This document shows, in pieces, positions 4,801-61,711 of a stretch of DNA of 64,000 nucleotides (position 1 is the stretch's first letter; each line of letters begins with the position of its first letter). The stretch is from Cycas panzhihuaensis (lineage: Eukaryota > Plantae > Cycadophyta). The notes under the pieces were generated by a model that saw only the letters and a list, made by a program, of their open reading frames with translations, made no database searches and was not told the origin of the DNA. The position numbers and the translations under genes were made by a program. The stretch covers positions 222,711,741 through 222,775,740 of the forward strand of contig CM041465.1 in the NCBI GenBank assembly GCA_023213395.1. Reading direction: 5' to 3'.

Positions 4801-4959
4801 GAAGAACCGATAATAGGAATCCAGGATGATTTTCCAGACGTGGAATTATTCTCCATTGAAGCAATCTCTAATTGGTACAAAGATATCGCACGATACTTGG
4901 CGACAGGGAATAGAATAAGTAGAACGACAGAGTTTCATTAAAAAAACCTTTCCCTTTCA

Positions 4960-6482: not shown

Positions 6483-6610
6483 AGTTAAAAAAAATAGAGG
6501 GGGGGGAATCATGAGAGTAGATTTTTCTCAATAATTTCAAATTATGAAACTTGATTTTAAGATAATGACAACTTGGAATAAAAGAATGTCTCAATCAAGA
6601 TCGTAGAGCA

Positions 6611-7510
6611 TTTGCAACCCGAGACATAAAAGGTTGCAACCAAGAACAATAATCAATTGCAACCCAGAACGTAAAAGTTTACAACCAAGAACGCAAAGCG
6701 GTTACAACCTGGAATGCAGAAGGTTATAACCAGGAACAAGAATCCATTGTAACCCAGGACGCAAAAGGTTGCAACCAGGAAAGCAAAGTGGTTGCAACCC
6801 AAAATACAGAAGGTTGTAACCAAGAACGAGAATCGGTTGTAACCTGGAACGCAGAATGTTGTAACTAAGAACGCGAAGCAGTTGCAACCCTGAACGCAAA
6901 AGGTTGCAACCAGGAACAAGAATCGATTACAACCCAGGATGTAAAAAGTTACAACTAGGGAAACAAAGCGGTTGCAACCTAAAACGCAGAAGGTTACAAC
7001 CAAGAAAGCAAAGTGATTACAACCCGAGATGTAGAAGGTTGCAACTAGGAAAGTAAAGTGGTTGTAACCCGAGACGCAAAAGATTGTAACCAAAGACGTA
7101 AAGTGGTTACAACCCAAGACACACAAGGTTGCAACCAAGGATGTGAAGTGGTTGCAACCTATGACGCACAAGGTTGTAATCCAAGACACATGAGATTGCA
7201 ACTAGCTTGTAAAGCAATTGCAATCTAGGACATAAAAGATTGCAACCAAAAACAAGAAGTGGTTGTAACCTTGAAAGTAAAAGGTTGTGACCAGGTTGTA
7301 AAAGGGTTGCAACCAGATCGTAAAATAGTTGCAACCCGAAACAACAAAAAATTACAACCAAGTCACAAAATGGCACAAATAGGAACTGCAAAAAATCACA
7401 ACCTATGTCACAAAAGTTATAACTTTGTGATATAAATGGTTACGACTTAGACATAGAAAGGTGTAACTAGAAATGTGAGGCAGTTGCAACCTAGAATGGT
7501 TGCAACTAGA
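6611..7510. repeat. tandem array of 45-bp units (22+23 bp halves), each half centred on the palindrome GGTTGCAACC
   Basis: Palindromes start at 6767, 6790, 6812, 6835, 6857, 6880 and so on. Roughly 35-40 copies, decaying towards 7510. Confidence 0.95.
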
Positions 7511-7789
7511 AAGATGAAAAGTTTTGACCAAAGGAATAAACAGTGTAATTAACCAAGTATCAAAACATAGAATGCAATCGAGTATTAAGACACCTAAGGC
7601 AATCGAGTAATACAATCAAGTATAAACAAAGCCGGGAAGGAAGAAAGTATTGTCAAAGCAAAGATTGTAGTTGATATGATTGAAGAATGAAAGTGATAAT
7701 AAGAATATAATCAACAATAATCAAGAGAAGAAAGGGCGGTCATGTCGATTGACTAAAGCCATAAATTCAAAAGCAGGTGATCACATCAA

Positions 7790-8869
7790 AATGAGTAACA
7801 GAAAAAGAAAACGAAGAAGAGGAAATAAGGAATTAGAATCATCAGACGCGAAAACGGAAAAGGCAGGAATGAAGGAGGGGTACAAATAGTTAAAATTGAT
7901 GGCTGTCCATTTAGCGAAAATTTTTGGTAATCACAGTAGCAAGATTGGCCCTTGAATCGAGATGATTCGATAAGTAAATTGCAGCGACAAGTGGCTACCA
8001 TATATATCAGGAGGTTAAATATGACACGACTTGATTACAACTTAATTATTGAAATCATAATTTAGAATGATAGTAGTTTTGCATGGTCTACAAGGTACAA
8101 AACAACAAGAATGGAAGACAAAAAATAAGCCAAAGAACAGAAGAATTCCAAAGGTGATTGCAAAAGATCAGAAATGAAGAATACATTAAACATCCATGTT
8201 AACTTCCAAAAGACGGATAACGAGAATCAAAAATGAGTGGAGCAATATGCTAGAGAATGATGCAAGAAAAGTAAATCCGACAAATGCAGAATTTGCACAA
8301 TATGTGCCAACAGAATTATTTCCAATAGCAACGAAATTTTTATCTATGATGGTATATTCGGTAGTTTGTCAACCTGATCTCTTCGATATTTCAGCAAAGG
8401 CCATTGCGCAGGTTTTGGGGTTACTTGATTTAGGTGAGGAGGTGCCCAGGAATAAAATAATCCCATGGGAATAGGCAACAAAACAATTAGGCGCATAGGG
8501 ATCAAATATTTCTACATTTGAAATTCATATCACCAGCATTGTAGATGAACATAGGCGTTGGATGGCTCACTTCTTCTTTATTTGAGTGGTTTTGAGCCAC
8601 AAAAAATGATATGTGCCTATAGAGATGAGATCGATGCTTCTGCGAGTGCCGGAGGGAGACTAATTCAATTAGGCTTCATTCCTCTCAAGGAAGCTTTTAG
8701 AAAAGTTGCATAATATTAAGGCTAGTACACAATCTATTGTGTTCTATCACCAAACCTTGTTTCAGGAATTATTGTATTTACAATGTCCCAAATTAGAGCT
8801 ACCTTTGGCTGAGTAAGGGCAATCAACCATGACTAGATGGATGAATTATTTTAGAAGGTAGGGAAAAAT
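7790..8869 (+). pseudogene. extra 3' ORF of element A, N-terminal part (plant transposon-associated domain-like)
   Basis: KRKRRR basic stretch; LDYNLIIEII; FDISAKAIAQVLGLLDLGEEVP..IHITSIVDEHRRWMA..FN*ASFL. Interrupted by copia at 8870. Confidence 0.6.
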
Positions 8870-9500: not shown

Positions 9501-9547
9501 ATCTCCACTTTGACAACAATTTACCTAGTACCTTTCCTAGACCCTTC

Positions 9548-12500
9548 ATCATCTTTTCTGCAAGCCAAGAGAAGTGAAACACCATTTGAACTTCTCTACT
9601 GGTACTGACTTTGTGAATATATTAGCATAATTCTGATTGGTGTGAATCTTCTCAAGTGCCACTCCACCTGCTTCCACAACCTATCTAACAAAATGGTACT
9701 TAAAAGCAATATGCTTTGCTCTACTGTGATAAGTTCGATTCTTGGCTAAGTAAATGGCACTTTGATTGTCACAAAATACCTTTACATTTTCCTGTCTCCT
9801 TCCAAAGTCAACCAATAGACCCTGTAACCAGATTACTTCTTTACAAACATGTGCTGCAACAACATATTTAACTTCTGTAGTTGATTGTGCAATTGTGCTA
9901 TGCAATTTGGACATCCAACTAATTGGACCATTTGCAAGAGTGAAAATATTACCTTAAGTAGACCTTCTTTTGTCTAAATCTCCTGCAAAGTCTGAATCAA
10001 CATATCCACAAACCTAATTACCTGTACCTCCAAAGGTGATATAGTAGTCACTTGTGCCTCTCAAACACCAAAGCACCCATTTCACTGTAGCCCAATGTTC
10101 TTTCCCTAGATTTGCCATAAACACCTAAGTACAGCGCATGTGAAATATCAGGTCTTGTACATACCATGGCATACATCAAACTTCCTCTTTGACCGCATAA
10201 GGCACACGAGACATATAAACATTTTCTTCTTTACTACTAGGACTCATATTCGAAGAAAGCTTGAAGTGGGAAGCCAATGGGATACTCACTGGTTTCACAT
10301 TTGCCATACCAAACTTGGTTAGCACCTTCTCCACATATTTTTGTTGTGATAACCATAGCTTACCATTTTTCCTGTCTGTGTGTATCTCCATGCCTAAGAT
10401 TTGTTTTGCAGCTCCTAGATCCTTCATATCAAAAGTCCTAGCCAATTGAGCCTTTAACTTATTGATTTCTTCCATGCTCTTACTTGGAATCGGCATGTCA
10501 TCAACGTATAATACCAAGATAATGAATAAGCCATTGTCCATAAATTTAAAGTAAACACAATGATCATACTCGCTTCTTTTAAAATTTTGGCTCTCCATGA
10601 AAGCATCAAACTTTTTGTACCACTGCCTAGGCGATTGCTTTAGGCCATACAATGATTTTCTGAGACTGCAAATAAGTCTTTTTCTGTCATCCTGTACAAA
10701 CCCTTCTGGTTGATCCATATAAATCTCCTCATCTAAATCTCCATGTAGAAAAGTTGTTTTTACATCTAACTGCTCCAGCTCTAAATCAAGAGAAGCTACT
10801 AATGCTAACAGCACTTGAATTAAAACAAGTTTAACAACTGTGGAAAAGATCTCATGAAATTCAATACCTACTTTCTGTACATAGCCTTTAGCCACCAATC
10901 TTGCCCTGTATTTGTCAACCTTTCCACCAACATCTGTTTTCATCTTAAAAACCCACCTGCAACCAATAGACTTCCTGTCATGTGGAAGTTCTACCAAGTC
11001 CCATGAATTATTATTCTTTAATGCATCTATCTCTTCCTGCATAGCCCTCTTCCACTTCTCACTATGCATATCATTTACTGCTTCTTGATAACATGTAGGC
11101 TCACCATCATTAAAAACCAAAGCAATAGAAGTAGATGGGTTGTACCTGTCAGGTGGATGACTAACTCGTGTAGATCTTCTAACTGTTGGTAGAGGAGTGT
11201 CCACATACTCCTGTAAATCTGTTGCAGATTCATCTTCAGAAACATCTTTCTGCTCTTCTGATTCCAAAGATGGTTGGGTTTCAAACTTGACCTGTTGATG
11301 TTCATCTTTCTGCTCCTGTTTCATTTCAACTTCTCCACTGTCTGATTTTAGAAGGAGAGATTCATCAAATACAACATCTCTGTTAATGGTGATTTTGTGA
11401 GTAGTAGGATCCCACAACCTATATCCCTTCGTACCATCCTTATCACCATAACCAACAAAGATATATCTCTTGGATTTTAGGTCTAACTTTGAACATTTAC
11501 TTTTGTCAGTCCAGACATAAGCATCACAACCAAAAACTTTTAAATTTGAATAATCACATGGATGTCCAGTCCATACCTCTTCAAGAATCTTGCAATCTAT
11601 TGCAAGTGATGGTGACCTGTTTACTAGATAGCAAGTTGTTTGAACAACTTCTGCCCACAAACTCTGCTCCACTCCTGCATTACTTAGCATGCTTCTTGCT
11701 CTTTCCACGAGTGTCCTATTCATGCGCTCAGCAATGCCATTTTGCTTTGGAATATAGCTAGTGGTCTTGTGTCTTTCGATCTCAACTTCTCTATAATAGT
11801 TCCCAAACTCCAAAGAGTTGAACTCACCTCTATTGTCAGTTCTTAAACATTTGATTGTCTTGCCAGTACTGTTCTCAACTAGAGCCTTGAACTGCTTAAA
11901 CACACTAAAAACTTCAAATTTCCTTTTCAAAAATAAACCCATACCTTCCTAGAGTAATCATCTATAAATGTGACATAATACAATGATCCTCCACAAGAAA
12001 TTTTAGGGGATGGTCCCTATACATCTGAATGTATGTAATCTACAATGCCTTTACTAATGTGACTCCCTACTTAAACTTGAGTCTACACTGCTTTCCAAAA
12101 ATACAATATTTACAGAAAGCCAAATATGAAAGTTGCAAGTTAGGAAGCAACTTACGGTTTATCAGCACCTTAAGTCCTCTCTCACTCATGTGCCCAAGTC
12201 TCTGATGCCATAACTGAGCTGGATCTTCTACAGTCTTTGATGTTGTAGCTGCTTGGCTGATATCTGTACTTCCCACTAAAATGTAAAGATTTCCTTTCTT
12301 TAAGGCTTTCATAACAACCAAGGCGCCCTTTAACACCTTTAGGACTCATTCATGACCTGTATGCTTAAAACCACCCGAATCTAGTTCACCCAAGGAAATC
12401 AGATTCCTTTTCAGATTAGATACATGTCTAACCTCAATTAATGTTCTGACTACCCCATCGAACATCTTAATTCTGATGCTACCAATGCCCACTGTCTTAC

Positions 12501-13462
12501 AAGAAACTTCATTTCCCATAAGCACATCACCACCATTAAGAGGTTGGTATGATGAGAACCAACTCTTGTGTTGACACATGTGCGAAGCACCTGAATCTAA
12601 TAATCAGTCATGGCGATAATGAGAAACATTACAAGCGACCAAGACATCATCATCCATACCTTGATTTGACTCCACCTGATTCACTTCCTTGGCAGAATCT
12701 TCCTTTTTCTGGAACTCCTTCCTTTTGTAACAATCCTTCTTGAGGTGACTGGCCTTATTATAATGCCAACACCTGAACTTACTCTTTTTGCTCTTTGACT
12801 TGGACCTCGATGTATCCTTAGAGTTTTATCCTCTCTCAAACGTTCTACCCCTTACTGTCATGGCTTCTGGTGTGGAGGTTTCAAAACTGGATTTCCTCTG
12901 CACTTCTTCTATTAGCAAAGCACTCAATGTAATCATAATCCAATACATTTGTAGTGCTAAAACTAATTGAGATGACAATATTATCCCAGGATTTGGGTAA
13001 TGAGCATAACAAGGTAACAACCTTGTCCTCATCCTCAATTTTAACATCGATACTAGTCAACTGACAAATAAGAGTATTGAAAATATTTAAATGGTCAGCA
13101 ATTTTTGTACCTTCCTTCATTCGTAACGAGTACAGTTGCCTCTTTAGATAGATTTGATTCATTATTGATTTGGTTATATACAAGCCTTCCAACCGAGTCC
13201 ATAATCCTGCTGTTGTCTCTTCCCCTGCGATGTTAAACAAGACTTCATCTGCCAAGCACAATCATATTGTGCTAAGTGCTTTTTTGTCTAAATCATCCCA
13301 ATCATCATCGTCCATCCCTGTGGGTTTCTTCAATTTACCTGCAAGGCCTTTGTACAAACCCTGCTGTACAAAAATATCATGCACTTTTAGCTTCCACAAC
13401 TCGAAGTTGTTCTTGCCATTGAATTTCTCTACCTCAAACTTTGCACCTACTAGTTTTGCCAT
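9548..13462 (-). pseudogene. copia gag-pol polyprotein (gag, PR, INT, RT, RNase H) with stops and frameshifts
   Basis: ORFs 13262-13546, 12881-13261, 12346-12579, 12067-12336, 10176-11942 (LRTDNRGEF, RLVAKGY, LYVDD) and 9681-9914 (STTEVKY). Confidence 0.95.
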
Positions 13463-13517
13463 TTGGTGTAGAAAGATCGACACCAAAACCTTCACAGACT
13501 CGATGCAAAACAAAAGT

Positions 13518-13530
13518 GGCTCCGATACCA
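13518..13530 (-). promoter_or_regulatory. primer binding site, tRNA-iMet type
   Basis: Minus strand TGGTATCGGAGCC, 2 nt inside the 5' LTR. Confidence 0.9.
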
Positions 13531-13532
13531 CT

Positions 13533-14126
13533 TGTTGAGAATACAAGGTCCCAAACCTTAAACTGCCACAAAATCTGAACTATTTTGTAACTAGTTACAG
13601 GAATTGAAACTAAGATTTAACATGCAAGTTCTAAAATCAAAGATAATACAATAACATCAATATACAAGCTAAACATCATATATGCACCCGATATAACGTG
13701 ATAAAACCCTAGCAGTATGCTAGGGAAACATCCACACAAGAAATGTATCGATCTTTATTACTGTAGAATGGAGAAACAATACATCTCAGTAGCAGAGTGC
13801 TCTCAGGAATAACAACCAGCCACCGCCCTCTTCACAATACATTACATTTTCATACAATATAATAAGAAAAGCCCTAAAACAGGCTACATGAGAGGGACAT
13901 CCAATGCATGAATCTCAACCATAGAATCTAGGGTATTTGTATCGAACGACCCTGATTTTCTTTACATTTAATATGGTTTACAGGGCTAATTTTTCGGGTC
14001 GGGGGTTATCGCCCCCGAACCCCCTCCTTTTCCCTTGGAACCCCTCGAGAAAGATTAGGGGGGGAAACCGCGCCAAAAACATGCCAAAATTTTAACCTTT
14101 AAATATTGTTGTCACAATATCCAACA
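13533..14126 (-). repeat. 5' LTR of Tork-like copia
   Basis: TGTTGAGAAT...ATCCAACA, matches 8870-9500. Confidence 0.95.
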
Positions 14127-14131
14127 AAAAT

Positions 14132-15181
14132 AGGACAGAGTGAAATCTAGGAAAAAGTAAGGGACTACTTCTTGAGAAAAAGCCAAGTAGGCAACCCCTA
14201 ACCGATATCACCAGAGGTGAACCAAGAGAAACGACAACAAAAAGAGATGACCTCATCAACCGAAGAAAACATAAAAGAAAAGCAAAAGGAAACTGTGGAA
14301 GAAGTGGTAAGGGAGGAGAAAAATAAAAAAGATGAAATAAGAAGGGGAAAGCAAAAAATAAGAGAAGTTGGATGGCAGTTAAGCAGAAAATTGTGGAGAA
14401 AAAACAACAACTAGCCCTGCAGTCTAATAAGCCCGTGATCACAAAAGAATAAAGAAGAAAAAAAAAGAAAATTACAACAAAGAAAGTTAAGCAAGAAATA
14501 ATCAGAATTCTAAATAGTCAGACCGTCGAGGTAAATTTTGATTTCAGCAGTGAGGAATTGGTGGAGGAAGGGATCAATTCAATGGAGTACCAACTGCATA
14601 ATCTGGCACATTGGAAGGTCTCTTTCCTAGTTAAAGTTATCCATCAAATGGTAAACAAATTGGAATCCCAAAGCAAATGGCCACCACCAGATTAGCAGTG
14701 AATCCAAAAGGCAGAAGATTAGCTAATAGCCTGTGAAGTAAAGTTAGAATTTTTGATTAAATTCATTTTGCATTGGGTAAGAGATATGTCTAGAGTAAAT
14801 CACCTAGTGCCAGTTTTTTATGTGATGTTTGCCAAGCAAATCCCAGAGGGGCTGGAAAGCGTAATACATAAGTTGGGAGCATGGATTATGAAAATGCGAG
14901 ACAATGTCGAGTATGCAAATTGTTTCTAGTCGATGATTGCTTCATTAAGAAGCGATTTACTTTATATAGAAATGAGAAAGAGTGAATTAGAGGAAGAGAT
15001 CGAGCGGACATACTTAGGCGAGAAGGCAACAATGGCCCAGCTGCAAACATTGTGTGACGTCGGAATCCTCTATGACCATTATAAGAAGCAAGGCATAAAT
15101 CTACATTATACAGTTTACCGACCGGACCTACAAAGGATTCACGCTAAAATGGTGAAGATCAGAAAAGCACGAGAAAGCTAA
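14132..15181 (+). pseudogene. extra 3' ORF of element A, C-terminal part (E/K-rich, coiled-coil-like)
   Basis: Resumes after the copia TSD; E/K-rich ORF 14217-14414 and ORF 14933-15181. Confidence 0.5.
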
Positions 15182-15261
15182 AATTTCTTTTTTTATAACA
15201 ATTGTAATATTTTCTTATTATTTACGAGTGAAGGCAATCGTAAGAATTGTGGCAGGAGAGG

Positions 15262-15655
15262 TGTGCAGGCTGAGGTAGTTGCAACCCGACTAATGTAATT
15301 GATTATATCTGAAACCAATCTTTAAAGGAGGAATGGTTGCAACCAACTTTGCCTGCAGTTACAAAAAATGAAGAATAAATGTAGAGGCAATTCTGATGCT
15401 TGTGTGTGTGTATAGTTGTTTTTATTGCACAGTGTGATGCCCTTGTATATATTGTACTTGATATGTATTATCTTGAATGCCGCATGTACTACTCTAGGTT
15501 GCCTCTGGTTGTGAGAGAACTAGAAGCAACCCGTCATAATGCAACAATTATGATTTTTGCTTCGTGAACTTATTGTATTCCTAATGGTTCTGGTTGAATT
15601 GTATTAAGATATTGTCGCCTCTTGTGCCTATTTATGCAGGTTAATAGGTAGCACA
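15262..15655 (+). repeat. putative 3' LTR of element A
   Basis: Purine tract GGCAGGAGAGG (15251-15261), then TGTGC...GCACA inverted termini. Contains GTTGCAACC at ~15278 and GGTTGCAACC at ~15335. The partner LTR is outside the window. Confidence 0.6.
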
Positions 15656-16559
15656 TACACACCTAAATTTTAAAGCCAACTTCACTATTAAAAACTTTCA
15701 AATAATGCAATTCATGTCCATAGGTTTTTAAAACCAACTTCAAAGTTAGTCCAAAGATTTATTCTCTATGTTCCCCTCTTATTTCACTATAAATAGCTCT
15801 CACATGAAAGCTTTTTGGTTCACAATTTTTCATTTGCTCACATGTGCACTTGCTTCCTCATGCTTAAGTAAGGCTCTTCACATATTAATTGATTGTTATC
15901 TCTGATTCATTTTTGCATGTAATCAAAGGAGTTCATATGCCCTAGTTATTGCCTTCGTGTTTATAAAGATCTTTTATCATTTTTCTCTCAAATTGTTAGC
16001 TCTATTCCATACTACAGTTGTACAAGAATATCACTATTCCATACAATTGATTTTATACTACCATCTAACAATATTCCTCTTCTCATACTACAAATTATAC
16101 ATTATGATCCAATAATATCCATCTTGTAATACCACAGATCTGGCACTTTTTCAATAACATCACCGTGGACCTAATGTTGTCTTTCAATAGTACACTATGA
16201 GTTTCTTACACTATTTAAATAGTATTATTCATAATATCATGGATTTTGCACTATATTTCAATGGTATCCATCAAATTAGTTTGATCACTTCACTCTCTCA
16301 CAATCTATTTTATTTTATTTCACTCTCTCACATTATTTCATTTTTTTTATTTTCTTTTTTTTTTGTTTCTTGCATACATTTGGACTGCTTTATTGCCTTA
16401 AATGGTCTGTTAAGTCTCTATTGACTCAACTCATACTTAACATTATCCCTATCTTGAAGCAACCCTCCTCCATCCTCATATAGGCTTCCTTTTGGAATTT
16501 CTCATGTTAATAGTTAACAAGTACATAACAATATTTTTATTTTGATATTGTTTTATAGG

Positions 16560-17653
16560 AAGAAGATTGAAAAGGAATATCATACACACTCTCATCAATA
16601 AGGATCCGTAGTCAAGCAACAAAGTAAGAGCGACTCACATATTTGGTTTAATTGTTTTAACAAAGGGAATAATAAGAGGTTGCAATAAAAAATCCCAGAA
16701 ACCTTTACTGAAAAATAATTTGTTGTGCACATATAAATACTTTCATCACTTGTAGGATTACATGTTCTTTGTGAAATGAATTTTATTTCTTTCTTCTCGA
16801 GTATATTTCTACACTAGGTATTATCTTAGATCAAAAAAATGAAGCCCCATTCCCAAGCAAACAACATAATTTCAATCTTAGAGAAAAACTTAGCACCATA
16901 CAATGCATTTAGTAACTTGTTAATACAGTGAATACGATATTCATTTTCTATGACAACATTATTCAAGATCCAATAGTCTACATATAGCCAAAATGACCCA
17001 TATTTCTTCTAAAGTTAAAATAACTAATGTTGCAAATGGAAACTTTCCAAGTTATGTTGACCTATTTTCAAGAGGTCATGCACCACTCTTTTAATTGTAT
17101 TTTATGTGTGACAAGTTGTAAGTACGATCAAATAATAATAGGTATAATTCACACATCTAATTCAATTGTTTACTCCATTCCTTGATTAGGAGTTATGCCT
17201 ATTCGTAAATCTCTAAAGAGAACTATACATCATGTTAACACTTCCTTTATAAACTAATTTCTTGTAGGGAGGATTTATGCCCTGCAATGAAAAAGGTAAA
17301 GCTAGCATACCACTGACTTCTGTGAAATTCTTTCTCCATTCTATAAGAGGACACAACCTCGATTACTAGGAGGTTAAATTTCAAATACAATTTCTCACAG
17401 TTGAAATATGTGTTCCCTAGGGTTCGACCTCTAACAAGAAAGTACTACTTTATCCTCTCTATAGGAATGATGCAGAGATCAATCTCTATAGTGAATCTTC
17501 CAACACTAAGCTTCAAGTTGGGACACATCCTTTTATGTGGTATGGCTTCCCTGTTGCCATTTTTTATCATGAAATTTATTATCTTTACCATTACCAAATA
17601 ACGTTTGGGTATTGTTCATCACTCAATAATTTACATGTAGTCCTTAGGCTTTG
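16560..17653 (-). pseudogene. heavily decayed gypsy (chromovirus-like) protease-RT relic; target of the element B insertion
   Basis: Minus-strand remnants MCPNLKLSVG..IDLCIIP, LQGINPP, KKYGSFWLYVDY and DLR. Confidence 0.55.
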
Positions 17654-18484
17654 TGTTGACTGCTGGGTGTCTTATTACACTTACAAGATACCCCTTTCAC
17701 TTGTCAAGGTTACCCAGTGTTATAGTCTAGTTCAGGATACTGTCAACATGGTCATTCACATACATTCCACATATAATTCACATATATTTCACAGAATGGT
17801 ACATGAAATGCAATCAATACATACTCAGCAATTTATCATCACAATACAAAGAATACACCATTTTCCACGTAACTCTTCCTTTTATTAAGTAATCAAGTCA
17901 ATTTACACAGAGGCTGGAATGCATTCCTAAGCATTCCGGTGACATCTGATCCTTACATTACACATGCGTACCCAGATGGTACTTATCATACAGTGCTGCT
18001 CCAATTGGCTGACATACGTGCTAGCTTCTGCACCTTTGCGTACCCATGATAATCGGCTCTCACCCTAACCTGGTGGTTCATGCGTACCTCCTTAAGTACT
18101 CATGTTGGTGCCTTTTGGCTGAAGGGTTATGACTACCTGTCATAACCGTACCCCTTCAGTCATACGTACCTTTCTATTAATCACTTGTTTAGGCACTTAA
18201 TTAATTATCCTTTATGTCTGTACGTTCATACGTACGTCTGGCAACTCAACAAGTCTTCACTAGTCCCTTTGAGTCATGCGTACCACTTCCGCTCGGTTCT
18301 GTTCCGCCGTTGGTACGTATCTGTCATACGTACCCGTTCAGTGCGTGCACATCATACGTGCCGAATCGATTTCTCTGCCGTTTTGCCTCGTGCGTACCTC
18401 CGTACGGTCCGTACCTACACAACTTAGGTTACCTGACCTACCTCTGGTCCTCTCACAGCCATTGGATCACTTTAGACTCCAACA
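17654..18484 (-). repeat. 3' LTR of element B
   Basis: TGTTGACTG...CTCCAACA; repeat of 27391-28225; rich in TGCGTAC and TACGTAC motifs. Confidence 0.96.
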
Positions 18485-18659
18485 TCTATCCCGGGTCAAT
18501 AGTTATGGGTTTGAGCATCCTTGCTCAACAAAACTCAAAAATTTTCAAAATTTCGGGGTATCCCTCCCCCGCTCTGTCTCAAGGCGGCTCCTGCTGCCTC
18601 TATCCTCCCAAAATCTCCTCATTTATCTGTGTCAGGGTGGCAATAATAGCATCCTTCTC

Positions 18660-19700
18660 TTTTATTTTGTCCTGAAGGGCAGCTATCTCAGCTTTATACC
18701 CTTCCTCCATTTCCCGAATCATTTGAATTATAGGTCCCGCTTTATCTTATGGTGTAGGAGGTGTTGAAGGTTCCCCTGCCTCCGTTGCCTGTGGGAAGTC
18801 TTCCCATTCTTCCTAGGATGCTTCTGCTTCTTCTTCCTCCTCTTTTGATTCTTCTTCTCCCTTCTTCCTCTTTCCTCGTCGATGGATAGCCTGTTTTGTC
18901 CAATGAAAAATGGGTGTTCCTGGTGTTTTTTGTAGCCAGGTAAGTACCTTTTGCATCTGTTTTTGTACTTTCCTCTTTGCTTCCAGACATTCATTGTGTT
19001 CTGAAATTACTAACGCCTTCGCAATGATTGGTTCCCGCGGAGAAATAGTGGTCCTGGTCAACTGCACCTCACGGACCTTTGGTAGAATAAAATTGCCAAA
19101 AGCAATGAAGGATGGCAGAATGGGTGTGTCCTAATATCCTTTAGTCACGCCTCATGTTTTACGCCAAGAATTCGGACCAATTCATCTTTTCCCGTCTCGG
19201 ATTTTCAACAACACGCATCGTGCCTCCACGAATGTAGGTGTACTTCGTTTGACAAAACACGGAATTGATCACTTTGGCCACCTACTGAAGTCTAGCATCC
19301 ATGATGTCTGCTACACGGATCCCACCGGACATAATCTGAGTGTTGGGTTGGCATAATTCTCTCAACCACATTTCTCTGTCCACTTCTAACCTTTTTGTTC
19401 CCAGTGGAATCTCTCCTTCCTTGGGAAGTCTGGTAATGGTATGGACTATGTCTGCGTCCATTTTAGCCTTCCTGCTGTCCTCCTTCAAGGCCATTAGGAT
19501 TTGGTCCATGAGTTCAGGGTCATAGTACATTGGGTTACAGTAGATGTAGTCTCCCCAACCTGCTTGTTTAACCCTGGCCTGGAATGGAGCTGGTAGAGCT
19601 TGTAGCTCTTACTTGAGTTTCGGTATATAAGCCTCCTGGCACCCTGCTATCCTCGTACTGGCTGCGAAGTCCCAGAGATAAGAAAGAAAACCTAAGCGTA
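18660..19700 (-). pseudogene. extra 3' sense ORF of element B (homolog of the element A extra ORF)
   Basis: AGWGDYIYCNPMYYDPELMDQIL..MDADIVHTITRLPKEGE..GIRVADIMDARLQ*VAK..KMNWSEFLA, then an E/K/R-rich tail. Confidence 0.65.
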
Positions 19701-19902
19701 CAAATCGGAACCCTACGTATGTACCTCTAAGGAACGCTTGCCGTTTTTAGGTCTTTGCATACTGCGATGCGTACCGAAGTGAATTCTTTGCGTTCCGTGT
19801 CGTACGGATGTCGGGCGAACTTTCCGGAGTCTGTTCCGCTCTGCATACTTCGCGAGAATGCTCGCAGGTACATAATGATTTGTCGTTTTGCGGATTTTTG
19901 TC

Positions 19903-20322
19903 TTATACGTACTGTCGGTACGTATAATGTTAAGAGTTTCCATTATACGTACTCGATTACATACTTTCTTTAGTACGTATAATGTAACTAAGCACCTGAG
20001 TGTATTTTACACAGTGCGTACCCGACTACGTACTTTTTTTTGGTACGTATAATGTAGTCGTTTAACTTAATTCTCTTTGCACTGTGCGTATCTACCTACG
20101 TACTTTTCAGGTACGTATAATGTATTTGAGCCACTTAAAATTTGTTTACATCGTGCGTACCAAACTGCGTACTGTTTAGGTACGTATAGTGTGATTTTGA
20201 ATCACTTTTTTGAACTGTGCATACTTCAATGTGTTTCCTTGGTACGTATAGTATCTTTTTCAAATTTGATCACCTTTTTCAACTGTACGTACCTGGTAAC
20301 ATACCTTTTTGGTACGTATACC
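19903..20322. repeat. array of ~43-bp palindromic repeats separated by 21-27-bp variable spacers (period ~69 bp)
   Basis: GGTACGTATA(A/G)TGT-like cores at 19917, 19972, 20042, 20110, 20179, 20241 and 20311. Confidence 0.9.
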
Positions 20323-20548
20323 ATATTTTATTTGTATGCTGTTGAATTTCCCTCTGATTTTCTCAGATGATGATGTTGTTACTTATGTCTGGGATGAGTT
20401 ATGGTTGTTTTTTTATTTTTTCCAATTTTTTTCCTCTTTTTGTATCCATACCGAACTAGATCATGGCTCGGTATCAAGCCATTTGATTGTGCCTCAATGT
20501 CATGCAATATAATATAGTACAACCAGCTGATCCTACTAGTAGGCTGGG

Positions 20549-21673
20549 CTACTTAATATATGGCTTGAGTCTGCTACCGTTTATCCGAGTTGGTAGCAAA
20601 GGTCCGTCGATCTCTCGAAGCTGCACCGATCCATTCTCAAAGATTCGTTCTGCGATGTATGGTCCCAACCACCGCATCTTGAGTTTTCCGGGGTGCGTTT
20701 TGAATTTGCTATCGTACAACAACACTTGATCACCTTTGTTGAATTGAGGTTTCCATAGATGGCAGTCGTGCCATACTTTTTGCCGCCGCTTCTCCACATG
20801 TTGCAACCAGTTTGCCAGGTGTCGTTTCTCTTCTAGTCGCACTAAGTCTTCCAATCGTCGTTCCAAAGACTGGAGGTCATCTAATCAACATTGTATTGCA
20901 ACTCGTAGACTGGGTATCTCAAATTCTGTCAGGAGAATGGCTTCTGTGCCATACACAAGCTGGAATGGAGTTTGTCCAGTTGACCTCTTGTATGTCCTTC
21001 GAAATGCCCATAGCACAGATGGTAATTTCTTGGCCCAATCAAATCTGTCGATGTCGCATATCTTCTGCAAGCAATTCTTGATTATCTTGTTTGAGCTCTC
21101 TGCTTGACCATTGGCTCTCAAGTAGTATGGAGTAGATTTCTGGTGGCTAATCATAAAGGCAGATGTCAGTGTTTTGACAGTTTGATTGAGGAAGTGGGCA
21201 CCTTGGTCACTTACAATCTCCAAGGGGCATCCAAATCGTGTAATCACTACCTCATACAGAAATCTTATTGTGCTTTCCGCATTGGCTTTTCGTAATGCGT
21301 GTGCTTCTACCCACTTTGTCGTGTAGTTGGTTGCCACCAGAATGTATCGAGCTTTCGATCTACGCGCGGCTGGTTTGATTGGCCCCACAAAGTCGAGCCC
21401 CCACTTCTCGAATGGTACCAAGGGTAATATGGGATGTAACAGTTGGAAATCCTGTCGATTAGGTTTCCACACCCGTTGGCAATAGTTGCAGGCTTGAATC
21501 CATTTTTTGACATCCTCGAACATAGGCGGCCACCAGAACCTAGACGTCAAGATCTTCCGCCATGTGGCCAATTTCCCCATGTGGCCACCCCCTACTCCTT
21601 CATGTGCCTGCGACATGATCTGGTTTATCTCATGTTGTCGAACACAACGTCGTGATACGCCGTCTGGTCCCAA
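20549..21673 (-). pseudogene. integrase of element B with GPY/F tail
   Basis: AHEGVGGGH..CNYCQ, WGLDFVGPI, IVSDQG, NGQAESSNK, RWLGPY. Confidence 0.95.
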
Positions 21674-21689
21674 TTTGTATAACTCTCCA

Positions 21690-23250
21690 CTGATGAGTTG
21701 ATAAGGCTCCGCTTTTCTGATAAAATTTCTCTTTCCCGTTCTGGTGGTACTTCTCCAGTCGCTAGATATTCTGGTATTCCCTCATACCAGTCTGTTGGAA
21801 CTGCTTCCACGCTGAACAGAGCTGCATCTGGAAAATCGTCTTGCACTCCCGTGGCTTTTTCTCCGTTTTTTATTCTCGACAACTGATCGGGAATGATATG
21901 GGCTTTGCCAGGTTTCACAATAACTTTGAAAGAAAATTCTTGAAACAACATCAACCACCTACTGATTCTCCCTCGCATAATCAGTTTATTCACCAAATAC
22001 ATTAACGCTTGGTGATCAACGAAAAACAAGAATGGATTTGATAATAAATAGTGTCGAAACTTTTGCAATGCATAGACCATGCCGAGTGCTTCTCTCTCTG
22101 TCGTTGTATAATTTTGCTCGGCTCTCGTAAGTTTCCGACTGGCGAAATAGATTGGATGATCTGTTTTGTCATCATTAGGCTGTGCCAATACGCATCCAAT
22201 GGCGTATTGCGACGCACCCACATGCACATGAAAAGTCTTCTTCCAATCTGGGAATCGCAGTATAGGTGCTGCTACAATGGTTTGTTTCAATGTTTCGAAC
22301 GCTCGTTGTTGTTCTTCTGTCCATGCCCATTCAATATTCTTTTTCAACAACTCTTCCAGAGGTCCAGATATGTATGCATACCCCCTGATAAACTTTCTAT
22401 AATATCCTGTCAAACCTAGAAAACCTTTCAGCTGTTTTCTTGTAATTGGTGTCGAAAAGTGCAGAATGGTAGATACTTTTGCTGGATCTGTCAGCAATCC
22501 TTCTTTGCTGATTATATGTCCCAATAAGTTTCTGAAGGGTACCAGAAAGGTACACTTTTCTGGATTGAGACAACTTATTTTCCCAGCACGTTTGCAACAT
22601 TTCCCCCAGATTTTCCATGTGATCTTTCATCAGTCCATACAATGTCCAGTCGTCTAAGAATACAACAATTTTTTCTCCAATAAACTTCTAAAAGATATTA
22701 ATTACAATTCGCTGGAATGTAGCTGGTGCATTCGTGAGACCGAATGGCATCACTTTGTAGGCGTATGTTCCCCATTCTGTTACGAATGTAGTTTTTGTCT
22801 GATCCTCTAGGGCAATCTGCACTTGATTGTACCCACTGAATCCGTCTGTGAAGGAATAAATCTCATTTCCCCCAACTGCTTCTAAAATATCCTCCGTAAA
22901 AGGTAGCAGAATGGATCCTTCTTTGTTACCTTATTCAAGCTGTCTGTAGTCCACACAGTGAATTTTCCCATTTTTCTTGGGAACCACCACTACAGGGCTC
23001 ACCCAGTCATTGTAGTCGATCTCGTAGATATAACCCGCTTCCAACATTTTGTCAAGTTCAGCTTTCGCTTTCTCTTTGTATTTCGGATTCATCTGGTATG
23101 GCCATTGTTTCACCGGTTTTGCATCCTCCACTAAGTCAATGTGATGCATTCCTATCTCCGTAGGAATGCCTTTCAGGTCCTTATACAACCATGCAAATAC
23201 ATCACAGAATTCTTCGAATAACTGCTGGGCTTCCGCTACTGTCTGAGGGT
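21690..23250 (-). pseudogene. pol: reverse transcriptase and RNase H of element B
   Basis: [40 protein letters not shown] (22649-22660), FLGLTGYYR, NYTTTEREAL. Confidence 0.95.
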
Positions 23251-23499
23251 CCCAATAGTTTCCGATTTGAATGAATTTAGGATTTTCCTGATTACCAACA
23301 TTAATCTCTGTAGTTTTTAACTTTGTTACACCCGCATCTTCTGTATTTCCAGTTTTGTGTCCCGGAGTGTCTTCGAGCTTTCTTTCTCCAACATTGAATT
23401 CTGTAAATTTTGCAGGATAGTTTATAACTTCTTCTTCTTCACTATGTGTAGATTTTATCTCTTCTTGGTCTGTTAGGTGTTGTTCTAATTTTATACTCA

Positions 23500-24000
23500 T
23501 TACTCTAATATGTTTCAGGATTTTGTCTATTTCTTTGTTATCAGTATGCCTAAAGGTTTTATGAAGGATTTCTTTAAGTTTCCCATGTTATATCTAAATT
23601 TTGTTCCTTCAGGAACAGGTCCTTCGCTACTCTCCCCAAGGTGTGGTAGAAATAGTTAGGCCAATTCTGTTTAGGTATACTTAAAGATCTCCATTTTTGT
23701 TTACAATTATGTATATGTTTCTTAGGATTGTGACCTACGTAGAATACTGGAATGGTTAGTTGGGTTAGATGATCGAACCGTATTCGAAACATCGTTTGTA
23801 AATCTTTCCAATTCCTAAGAGTGGCTTGGTGAGATAGATACCAGTACCAAGCTTTTCCCCGTAAGGTTAGGATCAAGTCCTGCTGCCATTGGGTTTTATC
23901 CCAATTCCCATGTTCCATCCAATATTCCATACAATGCGTTAAATGGGTAGTCCCATATAACTGCTCCCCACAGAATGGTTTAATATAGTTCCCAATGTAA
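23500..24000 (-). pseudogene. two tandem Gag-capsid-like domains inside pol of element B
   Basis: ORF 23574-24086: KPFCG..HLTHC..LTLRGKAWYWY..NWKDLQTMFRIRF, then IPVFYVGHNPKKHIHNC..W..FYHTLG..A..W. A 1-nt frameshift continues it as LKKSFIK. Confidence 0.75.
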
Positions 24001-24699
24001 ATTTGATGATCTATTTTCTCTAGGATGATGACTCTACTGTCTAGACCAAAATCGCTAGAAGTACTTACCAGCGATCCTCCTTCCATTTCCTCAGTTTTGG
24101 CGCCAATGGTTGGAAGAGATCTGTGGCTGGGTGGGTGTACCTCTAAGGAAGAGGAGGAAGGAATATTACTTCCTTCCTCAGGTTGTAATAGGGGGGGGGG
24201 GGTAGGAAATCTACCTCAGGACCCATGCCTGAAGTAGATGGGGTGTCAGGATTACTATTAACTACAAAAAAACTACGAAAATTATTAGGTAAACTAAAGG
24301 TTTGTTGGTCTAGGTTATTGTCATTCTTTGAACTATCGTTAGTCAGCATATACTCAAAAGAATCTGAATTATTATCAATGTCTGTAGATACATATTTAGA
24401 TAACAAATTACATCTATAAGAAGAAAAGTTTACTTCATACGCATCCTATAGCCAGTAATCCACAAACCTCATATCGTGTTCGTCGTCCGAAGAGTTGTAT
24501 ATCTCCCCGAAATATGTCAGTTCTTCTCGCTAGTTATTATTTGATGTGGTGGGCTCTTCTGCCATATGGTAGATATGTTCTTCCCCAATGGAAGAGAATG
24601 TTGTGTCGCTCATAACCATTGTACTGGATCCTTCATCTGGAATCATTTCGATCAAGCTTCTCCCCAGCATCGGCAATACCACTTTGTTTCTGCTGTCTG

Positions 24700-25030
24700 T
24701 TAAGGTGAAGGTTACGTTCTTCCAATTCTGAAGGCATTGCATTTTATACAACCATGGCCTTCCCAAAAGTGCTAGATAGGGTGTTGCCTATTTCTCTGTT
24801 TCCACAATTGTGAAGTCAATTCGTACCACTATCCCCACCACATCTACCTTGATGTCAACCAGTCTGCCCATAGGTCATACCAATAATTCGTTGGCCAGCT
24901 TTAACGAATAGGTTGCTGCTTCCAGCTTCGGGCTTCCCAATTTACGCCATGTTGAAGCCGGTAACACGTTCACTGCTGCGCCTCCATCAACAATTACCCG
25001 TGGGAATGTTTCTCCCAAGACTGTCATGGT
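24700..25030 (-). pseudogene. aspartic protease of element B
   Basis: VIVDGGAAVNVLP (~24960-24995); LLGRPWL. Confidence 0.9.
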
Positions 25031-25290
25031 TTCCATCAGATCCATATCAAATGATGGTATGATTTGCTTCAGACTCTTGGTGATTCCCCGCTATAACACT
25101 CCTTTGATCCAATCGATAACTTGGCATAGAGGAATAGTCAACTGTAGCTGCTTCACCAAATTTTCCATTAATAGCAACATTCTGGGAATATCCTCTGCTG
25201 GCAATCCTTTAAAAACTCCTCCATTTGCACCATTTGGGGCTTCACCTTAGGTTCTTCCAGTAGATTTTCTTATTCCTTTTGTTTATTCTT

Positions 25291-27250
25291 TCATACATAG
25301 ACGTATTTGGTTTCCGGTTTACCTATTGGTAATGTGTTCTCTTCCCGGACTAGGCCATCCAAGACTTGTTTTGCTTTTCTGTATCGATCCATTTCTGTCG
25401 ATGGATCCGAATATCCTTCATTCAATTTCTCCTTTTGTTTATTTTGTAGTTTGACATTTTTTGTTTCCGGTATGATTGTCATTAGGTTGGTCGCTTTGGC
25501 TTTCCCTTTGCAATCTTCTGTTTTGTGGTCACTTGGGCCCACGATTACTATCTGAATGGCTTGTCAGATTCACCTTCGTTGGGCATTCTGACTTCCAGTG
25601 CCCAAATTGTAGACAGATGAGGCATCTACCCATTGGCGGTTTTTTCCTCGAGGGTTCTGGTACACCCCTTGTTGTATAAACATTCTGAGGTAGGTTGCCT
25701 CCCCTTCCCCTACCTCGTCCTCTGAAGGGTTTTCCCCTGGGATTGTAGAAACAATCCTTAGTTGTATGTGTATCAACGTCGCATATATGGCACCATCTCT
25801 CTTGTTGGTGCAACGCACTATTTTTTAAATTCAAGTCACATTACTTGGTGGTATGTGAATTTTCTTCACAAATGTGGCACCATTTGGTTACTCTTCCCAC
25901 ATGGTCCTTCTTTTTTGGTGTTTCTTCTTCTTCTCGATTGTTTCTGATTTTCAATCTAGCCACTTCTTTTCTCAATGCTTCCAATTCTGATTCCTCTTCT
26001 GCTACCCCTACCTGGCAGAAGGGTCGGTTGTATTGATTTTGCTTCAATTCTCTGATCTCATCTTGTAATCTTAGCAGCAGGGAGTCTTGTCCTCCTGCCT
26101 GCGCGTCCATTTCCATTTCAAAATCTAACGCTAGATCTTGAGCATTCTTAAACGATTTCAGTGGATGAGCATGCATCATAGCTCGCAATTTCTCGTTCAA
26201 CCCTCTTACAAAGTAGTTTTTCATATTGTGATCTGTTATTGTCTCATTAATCATGCTAGCCGCAATGATTTTCATTCTGCTAATGTAGGTTAGGACGGAT
26301 TCTCCCGGCCTTTGTCTGATTTCTCTTAACACAATTTCCACTGTTTCATTACTGCGAAACTTTTGAAATCTTTCTTCGAATGCTTTCTTAAGCTTTACCC
26401 ATGGTTCATTCTTATTTGTTTCCTTGTACCATGCCAATGGTACTCCTCTCAACATATAGGCGAATCGTGCTTTGATTTCTTTGATTTCGTCTTCGTCTGT
26501 AATCTTTTTTACATCAATAAGACTCTGAAATAGATACGCATGCTCTGTTGCATCTGAAGTATCATTAAAAATCAGTTTCTCAAAGTCTCTATAGTCATCC
26601 ATTTTGGGAGATTGCAACTGTCCCCCACCTGGTGGTGACTTTTCCTTTCTTCCCTCCTTCGGGGATGCCTTTGGGAGTGCCTACATTTGTACTATCTTTT
26701 CCAAGCAATGATTCTTGAATGGAGTTTTGATGTGTATGGGTTCCACTACACCTGGAACTTGTATAGTCAATGGTGTCACTGTAATATATGATTGATCAAA
26801 TCCCCTTTCTGTCGAATCTTCGAAAAGCTGTCTCGTTAGCTTGTTCTCCCAATATGCCGAGGGACCTTCCTCCACCTTCTTATCACTGTCACCTGGGTCC
26901 TTCGGACTGTCCTCCACAGGTATACTTCCCTCTTCTAAGGTTTCTGGATGTTTTTCATCCACTTTTGGTTTCCCTTCAATCTCTGGGCTAAATAAATCAT
27001 CTCTGATTGGGCTGGTGTCAATACCATGTGTTCGCCATTAGTTTCCTCTTCCTGAGGTGTCTGGGCTCCACTTGCCTCAGATCCTTCAGCAATGTCCCTT
27101 AGTCTCGTTGTTTTGCGAACTTAATCTCCTCGCCCTTCTGAGTTTTGCTTCCTTCGACCATCTTAGTGCCCTTTGTCTGTTGGTCTCCTTTTCCTTGGGT
27201 GAAGTATCCTTCTGGGGCTCCTCCGACCTTGAAGGCCTCTTAGATGACAT
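25291..27250 (-). pseudogene. gag: gag of element B with low-complexity N-terminal extension and multiple CCHC knuckles
   Basis: LRGVPLAWY..WVKLKKAFEERF..IRQRPGESV; knuckles CHICEENSHTTK*C, CHICDVDTHTTKDC and CLICLQFGHWKSEC. Confidence 0.9.
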
Positions 27251-27376
27251 TGGAAGGTCCCCTGGCTGCCGGTGGCTTAGTTACAGCCCGCCATCACGAC
27301 GATAGCCAGGGTCCTCTGCCCTTTACACATTCTTTTCTTTGAAACCCCTAGGTCCTGTCCCTCCTCAACGGACGTA

Positions 27377-27389
27377 GGCAACGGAACCA
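27377..27389 (-). promoter_or_regulatory. primer binding site of element B, complementary to the tRNA-Glu 3' end
   Basis: Minus strand TGGTTCCGTTGCC, 1 nt from the LTR. As recalled, plant cytosolic tRNA-Glu ends GGCAACGGAA-CCA. Confidence 0.75.
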
Positions 27390-27390
27390 A

Positions 27391-28225
27391 TGTTGACTGT
27401 TGGGTGTCTTATTACACTTACAAGATACCCCTTTCACTTGTCAAGGTTACCCAGTGTTATAGTCTAGTTCAGGATACTGTCAACATGGTCATTCATATAC
27501 ATTCCACATATAATTCACATATATTTCACAGAATGGTACATAGAAGTACAGAAATCAATACATACTCAGCAATTTATCACCACAACACAGAGAATACACC
27601 ATTTTCCACGTAACTCTTCCTTTTATTAAGTAATCAAGTCAATTTACAGAATGGAATGCATTCACGAGCATTCCAAAGACATCGATCCTTTTGTTACACA
27701 TGCGTACCCGGATGGTACTTATCATACAGTCTTTGCTCAATTGGCTGACATACGTGCTGGCTTCCGCACCTTTGCGTACCCGTGATAATTGACTCTCACC
27801 CTAACCTGGTGGTTCATGCGTACCTCCTTAAGTACTCATGTTGGTGCCTTTTGGCTGAAGGGTTATATTTTGCCGTCATAAGCTGTACCTCGATCATACG
27901 TGCCTTTCCATTAATCACTTGTTTAGGCACTTAATTAATTATCCTTTGTGTCCGTGCGTCAAATGCGTACGTCTGGCAGCTCAACAGGTCTTCACTGGTC
28001 CCTTTGAGTCATGCGTACCGCTTCCGCTCAGTTCCATTTCGCCGTTGGTACGTATCTGTCATACGTACCCGTTCTAGGTACGTACCTATCATACGTACCC
28101 AGAATGTCGATTTCTCTGCCGTTTTGCCTCGTGCGTACCTTCGTACGGTCCGTACCTGCACAACTTTGGTTGCCTAACCTACCTCTGGTCCTCTCACAGC
28201 CATTGGATCACTTTAGACTCCAACA
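27391..28225 (-). repeat. 5' LTR of element B
   Basis: Direct repeat of 17654-18484, adjacent to the PBS. Confidence 0.96.
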
Positions 28226-30542
28226 CTTTGATGCCTCCTTTTCCCATACCACAACACTTCACATCTAATGCATCCATAATATTGGACTCTCTATAAAATA
28301 ATTTAAGTTATTCATCCTCATTTATCTCACCCTTAGCCCCTTATGATATTAGAAAATAAGGGCACAACCTTCTTGTTATGATAACCTTATGTCTACCATT
28401 CTTGAAAGTTACTCCTTTTAAGGGATTAAAGCCAATTGATGGTCTATAAGTTTGCCGACTTTGATAGCACTTAAACTATGTCTTATTGTTACACTTCTTA
28501 AAAATGCCACCACACTACCAAATAAGTTTAATGCTAGAGAGCTATTATAGTAGGCCAAAGATACCAAATAACTAGAATTATAAGGAACAATAATATACCT
28601 AATCATGATAGTAAATAAAGGAAATTAATGATAATATTATTATAAAAATATTCATAGTCAAAATATCCTTATAATCAATGATATATAGGCAACTACTTTG
28701 TGCCTCAAGAGTACTCCTATGGAGCTTTCTACTCAAGTTTATCATAACTTGTCCTCAATTAGCATAGCCTGCAGCTATTTCTATCTCACTTTAGTCTTAA
28801 TCAACTTCACCTTCCCTGTCTCTTCATATTATGACCTTTGGCCTCTCAACTTCATTATCTCTTCACCTTTTAACTTTTGACCTTTCATCTTCCATGTTTA
28901 TTCGCTTTCTACTTTAAGCCTTTTAGTTTCTAATATTCTCTTTGCCTTCTTTGTCTATTTAACTTTTGAAATAATCTTCCTTTTTCTCCACGTCTCCTCT
29001 TCCTATACCTTCATTCCAACAACCCTTTAACCTATTACACATTAGAGCACTTAAAGAGAGAGACTAAATAAAAACTTTTTATAGACTCATTAAATGAAGT
29101 TATAACTAAAGTTGAGGCATATATTTTTCCATAATTAGGACCTTTTGAGACCCCAGATAATCTCATTATACTCCCTTTACCAATCAATGTAAAAATAAAT
29201 CTCCTTCAATATTACAATGCCTTTGTGATGCATAACCACTATCTTCCTAGTAATGTTGGTTAAAGTCTGAATGACCCTATTATGATTGTAGGATCTTTTG
29301 GTATTGTAATATGTACCACTATGAGGTTAAATAGAGTCCCCAGTCGTTAGTATTTATTTGAGTAGCCCTTTTCGTAAAGTGTGTTGATATTACCAAACCT
29401 AGCTAGTAGGTTTTTTATGACTAAAGGTTCTTAGAAGTGTCATGTCAAACTAGGTATATGACTTTAGAATGATGCTAGGTTGGAAATCCCCATTTGTCAA
29501 ATTAGAAATCTAGAAATAGATGTTTATAATCTTATGATCAAATTTTCCTTGCAACTTCTACAACTCAACACCCATGTCGCCAATTCCACAAATCAAAGCA
29601 AATTACTTAGGAAAAAAATCCAAACACACAATCAAGTACACCTTTTGTTCCATGGGCTAAACATCTATGGTATCACAATGTTCTCTTATTGATTTAACAA
29701 GATCAAAGTCTGACTATGGAACAGTCATAAGGCAAGTCTATTGAGAAGAAAACCCTTATGACTTGATTGCATTTTGTAAAATTTATGTATACATGAGGAA
29801 AAATTAATTGGCATGACCTTTTCATGTCTGTAAGATAACTAATTTTATTGCCAGTTAGTTTTTCATTAGGCGCAATTATGTGTAATAATTGCCTTTCGAT
29901 CATGCTAAAGGGAAGCCCCTTCAACTTGCTTTGAAGGGACATCTATATTTTCCAAATGATCACATACCTTCACATCAATCCAAAGAGAAATTTTCAAAAC
30001 TTGGGCTCAACTACTTTTCTCGCATTTGTACATCAAAATCTTGACTTCACAAAATGGTCACTACATCATATTTGTTCAAATCTCAAGCCCAAAAACACAT
30101 CATGAAGTGTATCAATATATCAAAAGCAAAAATCCATAAGCAATCAAATAGATGACAAATTTGACATAGATAAGGACCAAAATAGGCCTCATCATTTCCC
30201 TCCCAAACCCAAACTCTATGTCAGAGGATCAATCTGGTTGCTTTTACTTTCCTTTGCTATTGTCCCCTTCCTAACATTTCTTTAGTTGCCCTCATGCTTA
30301 AAAATGGAATGCTTACAAAGTACTTTCACTTTGAGGATATGCCTCTCTCAAATTCAACATTTGAGAGGATTTCTTCAATTACTTGGCCATTGGTTTCCTC
30401 AACAATTCATCTTGCATATCAAATCTGTGAACTAGCCCCTACAAATGTTGAATATCAAATGGCATATAGAGAAGGGAGGGTTGATACGTCATGTTACTCT
30501 CTTTAATATGATACTTCACAAATCAATAGATTAGCTCATCCA

Positions 30543-61662: not shown

Positions 61663-61711
<49 letters not shown>

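What the first reader, a model, noticed from the sequence alone, without database searches (positions are those of the whole stretch)
19903..20322. Repeat-spacer array with hairpin repeats in element B (CRISPR-like layout, not a CRISPR)
Seen in sequence: about 7 repeats, consensus roughly ACTGTGCGTACnnnACTACGTACTTTTnnGGTACGTATAATGT. Each can fold as a TACGTAC/GTACGTA stem over a T-rich loop. Most are separated by 21-27-nt spacers far more divergent than the repeats (e.g. AACTAAGCACCTGAGTGTATTTTAC, AGTCGTTTAACTTAATTCTCTTTGC, ATTTGAGCCACTTAAAATTTGTTTAC). CpG-containing cores persist although other parts of the window show heavy C>T decay, which suggests selection on the motif or hairpin and on spacing.
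Basis: seen in the sequence. Interest (0 to 1): 0.7.

Follow-up and report, generated by a model that had tools for sequence, protein, structure and literature searches.

The report
Palindrome array before retrotransposon extra gene
This is not a CRISPR-like record of captured sequence but an old string of short palindromic DNA words inside a plant jumping gene, repeated both in front of its unexplained extra gene and in its end repeats, which likely serves as a protein-binding control region; a neighbouring relative has the same layout with a different word.

Summary
The array is real: seven units, conserved boxes (69% alike), linkers no more alike than shuffles (50%). It lies in a 10.6-kb Ty3/gypsy LTR retrotransposon (17654-28225, minus strand), between the end of pol and an unnamed sense extra ORF whose relatives reach Ginkgo. 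The boxes are the same TRCGTAC word that is clustered in both LTRs (9 and 11 copies; 0 in gag-pol). Contigs of other copies carry the same linkers in the same order, so there is no sign of polar acquisition. Hairpins form but show no covariation and pair better on the antisense strand. An older relative in the same window has the same layout: pol, array of another palindrome (GTTGCAAC), homologous extra ORF, same word in its probable LTR. This matches the Sirevirus 'RM box' layout (LTR plus upstream of the env-like gene), here in a gypsy lineage. Likely a DNA-level protein-binding control region; the binder (host factor or the element's own protein, VANC-like) is untested. The scan has noted related motif-plus-extra-gene layouts in other genomes. 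New variant of a known kind; moderate interest.

The parts
19903..20322 (.). Array of seven units, each with up to three TRCGTAC/GTACGTA boxes (direct, direct, inverted) and an AT-rich linker; non-coding
   Evidence: 16 boxes, 0.94 expected; stops in all six frames
17654..18484 (-). 3' LTR of element B (TG...CA); box cluster in its first ~530 nt (probable U3)
   Evidence: (9 boxes, 0.4 expected)
27391..28225 (-). 5' LTR of element B; same box cluster
   Evidence: 11 boxes, 0.32 expected; 63 differences in 823 aligned columns between the LTRs
17649..17653 (+). Target-site duplication CTTTG (second copy 28226-28230)
27372..27389 (-). Primer-binding-site position, begins TGG one base after the 5' LTR; tRNA type not tested
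20549..27280 (-). gag-protease-RT-RNaseH-integrase, Ty3/gypsy order, broken by stops and frameshifts; no box copies
   Evidence: integrase 54% to Adiantum proteins, 38-44% to pine proteins
18603..19860 (-). Sense extra ORF, broken in this copy (start not fixed; homology core 19147-19638); N-terminal domain, basic/acidic stretch, predicted coiled-coil end; no Pfam family
6610..7507 (.). Element A (older relative): array of 22/23-bp units with palindromic core GTTGCAAC, after pol
   Evidence: (13 of the window's 16 exact GTTGCAAC)
8349..8711 (+). Element A extra ORF, homologous to that of B
   Evidence: E 1.9e-9 within the window's six frames, profile of natural homologues
15278..15343 (.). Two GTTGCAAC copies 20 and 78 nt after a purine tract + TG, probable start of element A's 3' LTR (partner LTR is outside the window, so unconfirmed)
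   Evidence: 2 observed, 0.018 expected, 0 of 5000 shuffles

Best explanation
The array is an old tandem expansion of the retrotransposon's own LTR motif, placed in front of its extra gene, and likely works as a DNA docking site for host transcription factors that would give that gene an internal promoter or enhancer. Shown: position between pol and the extra ORF, identity of the word with the LTR cluster, absence from gag-pol, inheritance of linkers across copies, occasional whole-unit loss or duplication, a parallel layout with another word in element A. Inferred: units arose by duplication (slippage or template switching), linkers drifted to saturation while boxes were held by selection in active lineages, and bound proteins keep this CpG-rich patch open. 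The GTAC-rich boxes resemble SBP/SPL sites (maize GTACGTRC; 10.1101/2024.09.13.612952, passages), a lead only.
For: Boxes: 16 in the array, 9 and 11 in the LTRs, 0 in 6811 nt of gag-pol, 1 in 35,701 nt to the right and 0 in 1-17000. GTAC density 37/kb in the array, 19-22/kb in LTRs, 2/kb in gag-pol. Between the two LTRs, 17 of 19 CpGs in box context are unchanged against 8 of 17 outside (Fisher p=0.01; one other change left out). Each of the five long linkers is bridged by at least one contig of another copy with 10-18% other letters (table 8 records 6, 11-14, 22, 23, 30; record 1). Element A repeats the layout with a homologous ORF. [quoted passage not shown]
Against: No binding, transcript start or methylation data. 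No TATA-like word between array and ORF start (only one at 19629, inside the ORF). Only 1 exact GTACGTRC and no GTACGG in the array, and element A's word has no GTAC, so no single host factor explains both. The CpG test rests on one LTR pair, a box context chosen after seeing the data, and uneven LTR divergence (1 difference in the first 100 columns, 6-11 per 100 after). The array folds better than controls that keep the 7-mer boxes (z -4.4 and -3.8).
Confidence: 0.5

Rival explanations
1. The binder is the element's own extra-ORF protein: a family-specific self-recognition system that would counter DNA methylation, as VANC does for VANDAL transposons.
For: Two related families share the ORF (14% identity in alignment; profile match) but carry different words, each in array and LTR; box CpGs are spared between LTRs; ORF has a basic stretch and a predicted C-terminal coiled coil. 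[quoted passage not shown]
Against: No PMD, Transposase_28 or Athila ORF-1 match in any of 15 family members scanned. Co-variation of protein and word in two linked cases is expected from shared descent. Boxes do decay in this copy, and C>T/G>A changes are the commonest among other copies.
Confidence: 0.2
2. A neutral minisatellite of the recombination-prone pol-3'LTR region; the boxes look conserved only because units were partly homogenised.
For: Tandem arrays are common there in non-chromoviruses, family-specific, function unknown (PMC11963269; PMC6317226). Unit-size skips and returns occur (12 joints listed, 1-2 contigs each). A weak shared word CACYT in 4 of 5 linkers and 3 of 7 alternative linkers hints at common descent.
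Against: Sharp box/linker contrast; same word dispersed, without tandem period, in the LTR; two families do the same with different words. The CACYT hint fails a look-elsewhere test (38% of shuffles).
Confidence: 0.16
3. The units act as RNA hairpins (packaging, dimerisation, splicing control, or small-RNA precursors).
For: MFE z -6.9 (sense) and -8.7 (antisense) against dinucleotide shuffles, still about -4 with boxes kept; 90% of outer-stem cells pair. Sirevirus palindromes form hairpins and are siRNA hotspots (PMC4728375, passages).
Against: Two stem positions are G-U in 5 and 4 of 6 units on the + strand and become A-C mismatches in the element's own RNA. Any string of palindromic words folds. 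No Rfam match at E<=1.
Confidence: 0.13
4. A CRISPR-like array that acquires spacers.
For: Layout only; some contigs carry other linkers after the same arm (table 5c).
Against: Linkers inherited in order across copies in four runs with four organism labels; joints are internal (9 of 12 start at 20118-20139), not at one end; best match of each linker elsewhere in the window equals shuffle level; repeats only 69% alike.
Confidence: 0.01

Closest known systems
Sirevirus repeated motif (RM) boxes (Ty1/copia; PMC2829016 passages and section 19 read; PMC4728375 passages)
   Same: Family-specific palindromic CG-containing word, many copies, divergent flanks, clustered in the upstream half of the LTR and again upstream of the extra (env-like) gene, CpG-rich, hairpin-forming.
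   Different: Here a Ty3/gypsy element of a probably non-flowering plant; no CGG-CCG core; boxes arranged as a spaced 69-bp three-box unit; extra ORF is an unnamed family.
[quoted passage not shown]
   Same: Same superfamily and position, family-specific units, neighbouring extra ORF, function unknown.
   Different: Extra ORF is sense, not antisense TRP28; no archaeal RNase H found; units strongly diverged outside the boxes; word shared with the LTR.
VANC/VANDAL target repeats (PMC5735166 passages)
   Same: Short word accumulated by tandem repeat formation in non-coding parts, differing between related families that carry a homologous accessory gene.
   Different: DNA transposon; binding and demethylation shown there, untested here; no sequence or fold link of this ORF to VANC/PMD obtained.

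Membership tests
Ty3/gypsy LTR retrotransposon | Two LTRs with TG...CA ends and 4-6 bp target-site duplication | tested here: met
Ty3/gypsy LTR retrotransposon | Domain order gag-PR-RT-RH-INT | tested here: met
Tat clade (TatI-III, Ogre, Retand) | Additional archaeal RNase H domain | tested here: inconclusive
   No such Pfam hit in 15 stop-to-stop ORFs; a 213-aa unassigned stretch lies between protease and RT; the copy is broken
Athila / other non-chromovirus lineage | Placement by RT-RH-INT phylogeny | not tested
   No reference set at hand; no chromodomain hit after integrase; nearest named integrases from fern, pine, liverwort
Sirevirus RM-type layout | Repeated palindromic word in LTR upstream half and upstream of the extra gene | tested here: met
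   B; A, LTR unconfirmed
Sirevirus RM-type layout | CGG-CCG core, in a Ty1/copia Sirevirus | tested here: not met
   Cores are CGTAC and GTTGCAAC; element is gypsy. Works-like, not a member
VANC-type anti-silencing system | Accessory protein related to VANC/MAIN (PMD) | tested here: inconclusive
   No Pfam hit; models too poor (pLDDT 54 and 48); fold searches found only the coiled coil
VANC-type anti-silencing system | Protein binds the word and lowers methylation | not testable with these tools
   Needs binding and methylome data
CRISPR array | Near-identical repeats with unique acquired spacers gained at one end | tested here: not met

The most novel reading that the evidence does not exclude
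Gypsy retrotransposons of ferns and gymnosperms carry an undescribed accessory protein that recognises a family-specific palindromic word arrayed in front of its own gene and in the LTR, shielding those CpGs from silencing: a VANC-like self-recognition system in an LTR retrotransposon, old enough to be shared with Ginkgo.
Probability: 0.2. Interest if true: 0.8.

Novelty: new variant of a known kind. Interest (0 to 1): 0.42.

Why it matters
The function of the tandem arrays and extra genes in the 3' region of plant gypsy elements is an open question (PMC11963269 says origin and function are unknown). Two families side by side with the same accessory gene and different words, each repeated in array and LTR, tie the arrays to the LTR control region and show the Sirevirus two-site layout in the other superfamily. 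It gives a direct swap test (word A or B against protein A or B, or against host factors) in a very abundant family of a large plant genome.

Tried and rejected
No whole genome is held, so copies were seen only as short contigs; difference tables were cut (40 of 277 rows; 40 of 1576), so per-site rates of boxes and linkers across copies could not be computed. Among the 40 rows, 15 fall in the array, 2 of them in linkers; this is a biased sample. Pattern scan of metagenomes: 9 of 9 hits were unrelated GTAC-rich simple repeats with no blastn match to the window. Viral contigs: no relative. No RNA holder on record; four guessed-RNA runs cover all 30 bins of the element and show no splice-like joint across the array among 15 of 50 joints listed: no evidence either way. 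Linker-internal word: looked significant as a fixed pattern but not after look-elsewhere correction (96% and 38% of shuffles); 3 of 7 alternative linkers of 13 nt or more, counted by eye, carry it (p 0.02-0.07); shorter inserts and one row starting outside the array were left out. First word-index search for the extra ORF found nothing; PDB sequence search nothing below E 0.3; both structure models were low-confidence and the second was not searched; the protein atlas gave no result, so the fold of the extra protein stays open. Element A's array as coding repeats: rejected, 22/23-bp steps with runs of 22 and stops in all frames. Gag duplication between protease and RT: E 0.16, not shown. Literature: searches found no paper describing the LTR-plus-upstream motif layout in a gypsy element; the library lacks most subscription papers and no supplements were read.

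Full report
Observation. The array is in the sequence as described. GTACGTAT occurs seven times between 19918 and 20312 at spacings of 55, 70, 68, 69, 62 and 70, against 0.12 expected. A full unit holds two direct TRCGTAC boxes 12 nt apart, a T-rich stretch, an inverted box GGTACGTAT with a short extension, and a 20-25-nt linker. Cores are 69% alike, linkers 50%, the level of shuffled linkers. All six frames contain stops, Rfam has no match, and no tRNA gene is in the window.

Context. The array lies in a Ty3/gypsy retrotransposon on the minus strand: LTRs 17654-18484 and 27391-28225, target duplication CTTTG, gag-PR-RT-RH-INT broken by stops. The nearest named integrases are from the fern Adiantum (54%), then liverwort and pine, so the host is probably a non-flowering land plant (inference). 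Read in the element's direction, the order is pol stop (20549), about 230 nt, array, then a sense extra ORF. That ORF has 7 relatives at E<=0.001 among 1.84 billion representatives: six unnamed Logan proteins at 41-58% and one Ginkgo protein at 27%; a profile search added six more Ginkgo proteins. None of 15 members scanned matches a Pfam family below E 0.1, and two structure models were too poor to place the fold.

The word is the LTR word. TRCGTAC or its inverse occurs 16 times in the array, 9 and 11 times in the first ~530 nt of the two LTRs, once in the extra ORF, never in 6811 nt of gag-pol, once in 35,701 nt right of the element and never in 1-17000. [quoted passage not shown] Between the two LTRs, 17 of 19 CpGs in box context are unchanged, but only 8 of 17 others (p=0.01). 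This is one pair and a context chosen afterwards, so it is suggestive, not proof; boxes at 19958 and 20218 have decayed in this copy.

Other copies. Twenty of 24 listed runs, from 13 studies, hold part of the stretch. In four runs with four organism labels, 4,000-5,300 contigs each lay on 19600-20700 and all 30 bins are covered. Each long linker is bridged by at least one contig at 10-18% other letters, in the same order (table 8; record 1). Twelve listed joints skip or repeat units, each in one or two low-depth contigs, 9 of them starting at 20118-20139; some carry other linkers (tables 5, 5c). So linkers differ between units but are inherited between copies; change comes by internal unit gain and loss and by subfamily divergence, not by polar acquisition. 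No linker matches elsewhere in the window above shuffles.

Hairpins. The region folds well (z -6.9 sense, -8.7 antisense), and still about four SD better than controls that keep the 7-mer boxes, because the arms are longer inverted copies of one motif. But covariation among six units is not above shuffles, and two stem positions are G-U pairs on the + strand, which are A-C mismatches in the element's RNA. Folding is best read as a by-product of alternating box orientation, though six units give little power.

A second case in the window. Element A (plus strand, 51-62% protein identity to B in RT-RH-INT) has after pol an array of 22/23-bp units with the palindrome GTTGCAAC (6610-7507), then an ORF homologous to B's extra ORF (8349-8711, E 1.9e-9). 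Two more exact copies of A's word lie 20 and 78 nt after a purine tract and TG at about 15259, the probable 3' LTR start (0 of 5000 shuffles); the partner LTR is outside the window. A has no B boxes; B has one A word, in pol.

Mechanism. Most likely the array is a second copy of the LTR control region: duplicated units whose boxes were kept by selection for protein binding on DNA while linkers drifted, giving the extra gene its own promoter or enhancer (0.5). The GTAC-rich boxes resemble SBP/SPL sites (10.1101/2024.09.13.612952, passages), but only one exact maize-type site is in the array and A's word has no GTAC. The bolder reading, that the extra protein itself reads the word as VANC does (PMC5735166, passages; PMC13547354, passages), fits the family-specific words and spared CpGs but has no direct support (0.2). 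Together, DNA-level protein binding is about 0.7. Neutral minisatellite (0.16), RNA hairpins (0.13) and spacer acquisition (0.01) follow. Binding, promoter activity and methylation are all untested.

Comparison. Sireviruses have palindromic RM boxes in the LTR and upstream of the env-like gene, with divergent flanks and CpG islands, and an internal promoter was proposed (PMC2829016, passages and section 19); their palindromes form hairpins and attract siRNAs (PMC4728375, passages). [quoted passage not shown] PMC12844716 (passages) leaves open whether LTR extra ORFs alter methylation. This finding works like the Sirevirus layout but is not a Sirevirus. Six searches found no description of that two-site layout in a gypsy element; supplements were not read. 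Unchecked notes of this scan describe related motif-plus-extra-gene layouts in other genomes and warn that such co-variation can come from linkage alone.

Verdict.

Noticed in passing
window 1-16000 (+): Element A: older gypsy relative of B (67% DNA identity over 1.3 kb of RT-RH) with its own palindrome array and homologous extra ORF; interrupted inside that ORF by a copia element.
   Followed up: yes
window 8869-14127: Ty1/copia-like element with LTRs 89% identical and a 590-aa open RT-containing stretch on the minus strand.
   Followed up: no
window 23574-24215 (-): 213-aa unassigned stretch between protease and RT of element B with a weak gag-like segment (E 0.16 to B's own gag); not an RNase H by Pfam.
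   Followed up: partly
window 17654-18484 vs 27391-28225: LTR divergence is uneven: 1 difference in the first 100 columns and none in the last 44, 6-11 per 100 elsewhere; may be a recombinant LTR pair, so dating by LTR distance (K2P 0.082) is unsafe.
   Followed up: partly
window 19654-19850: Looser CGTAC/GCATAC copies continue from the array into the 5' part of the extra ORF, as reported for some Sireviruses at the start of env.
   Followed up: partly
Ginkgo proteins P0129-P0135: Seven annotated Ginkgo gene models belong to the unnamed extra-ORF family and are probably retrotransposon-derived.
   Followed up: partly
window 45281-46261; 61646-61737: A 495-bp tandem duplication (89%) and an (AT)46 microsatellite inside other repeats.
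   Followed up: no
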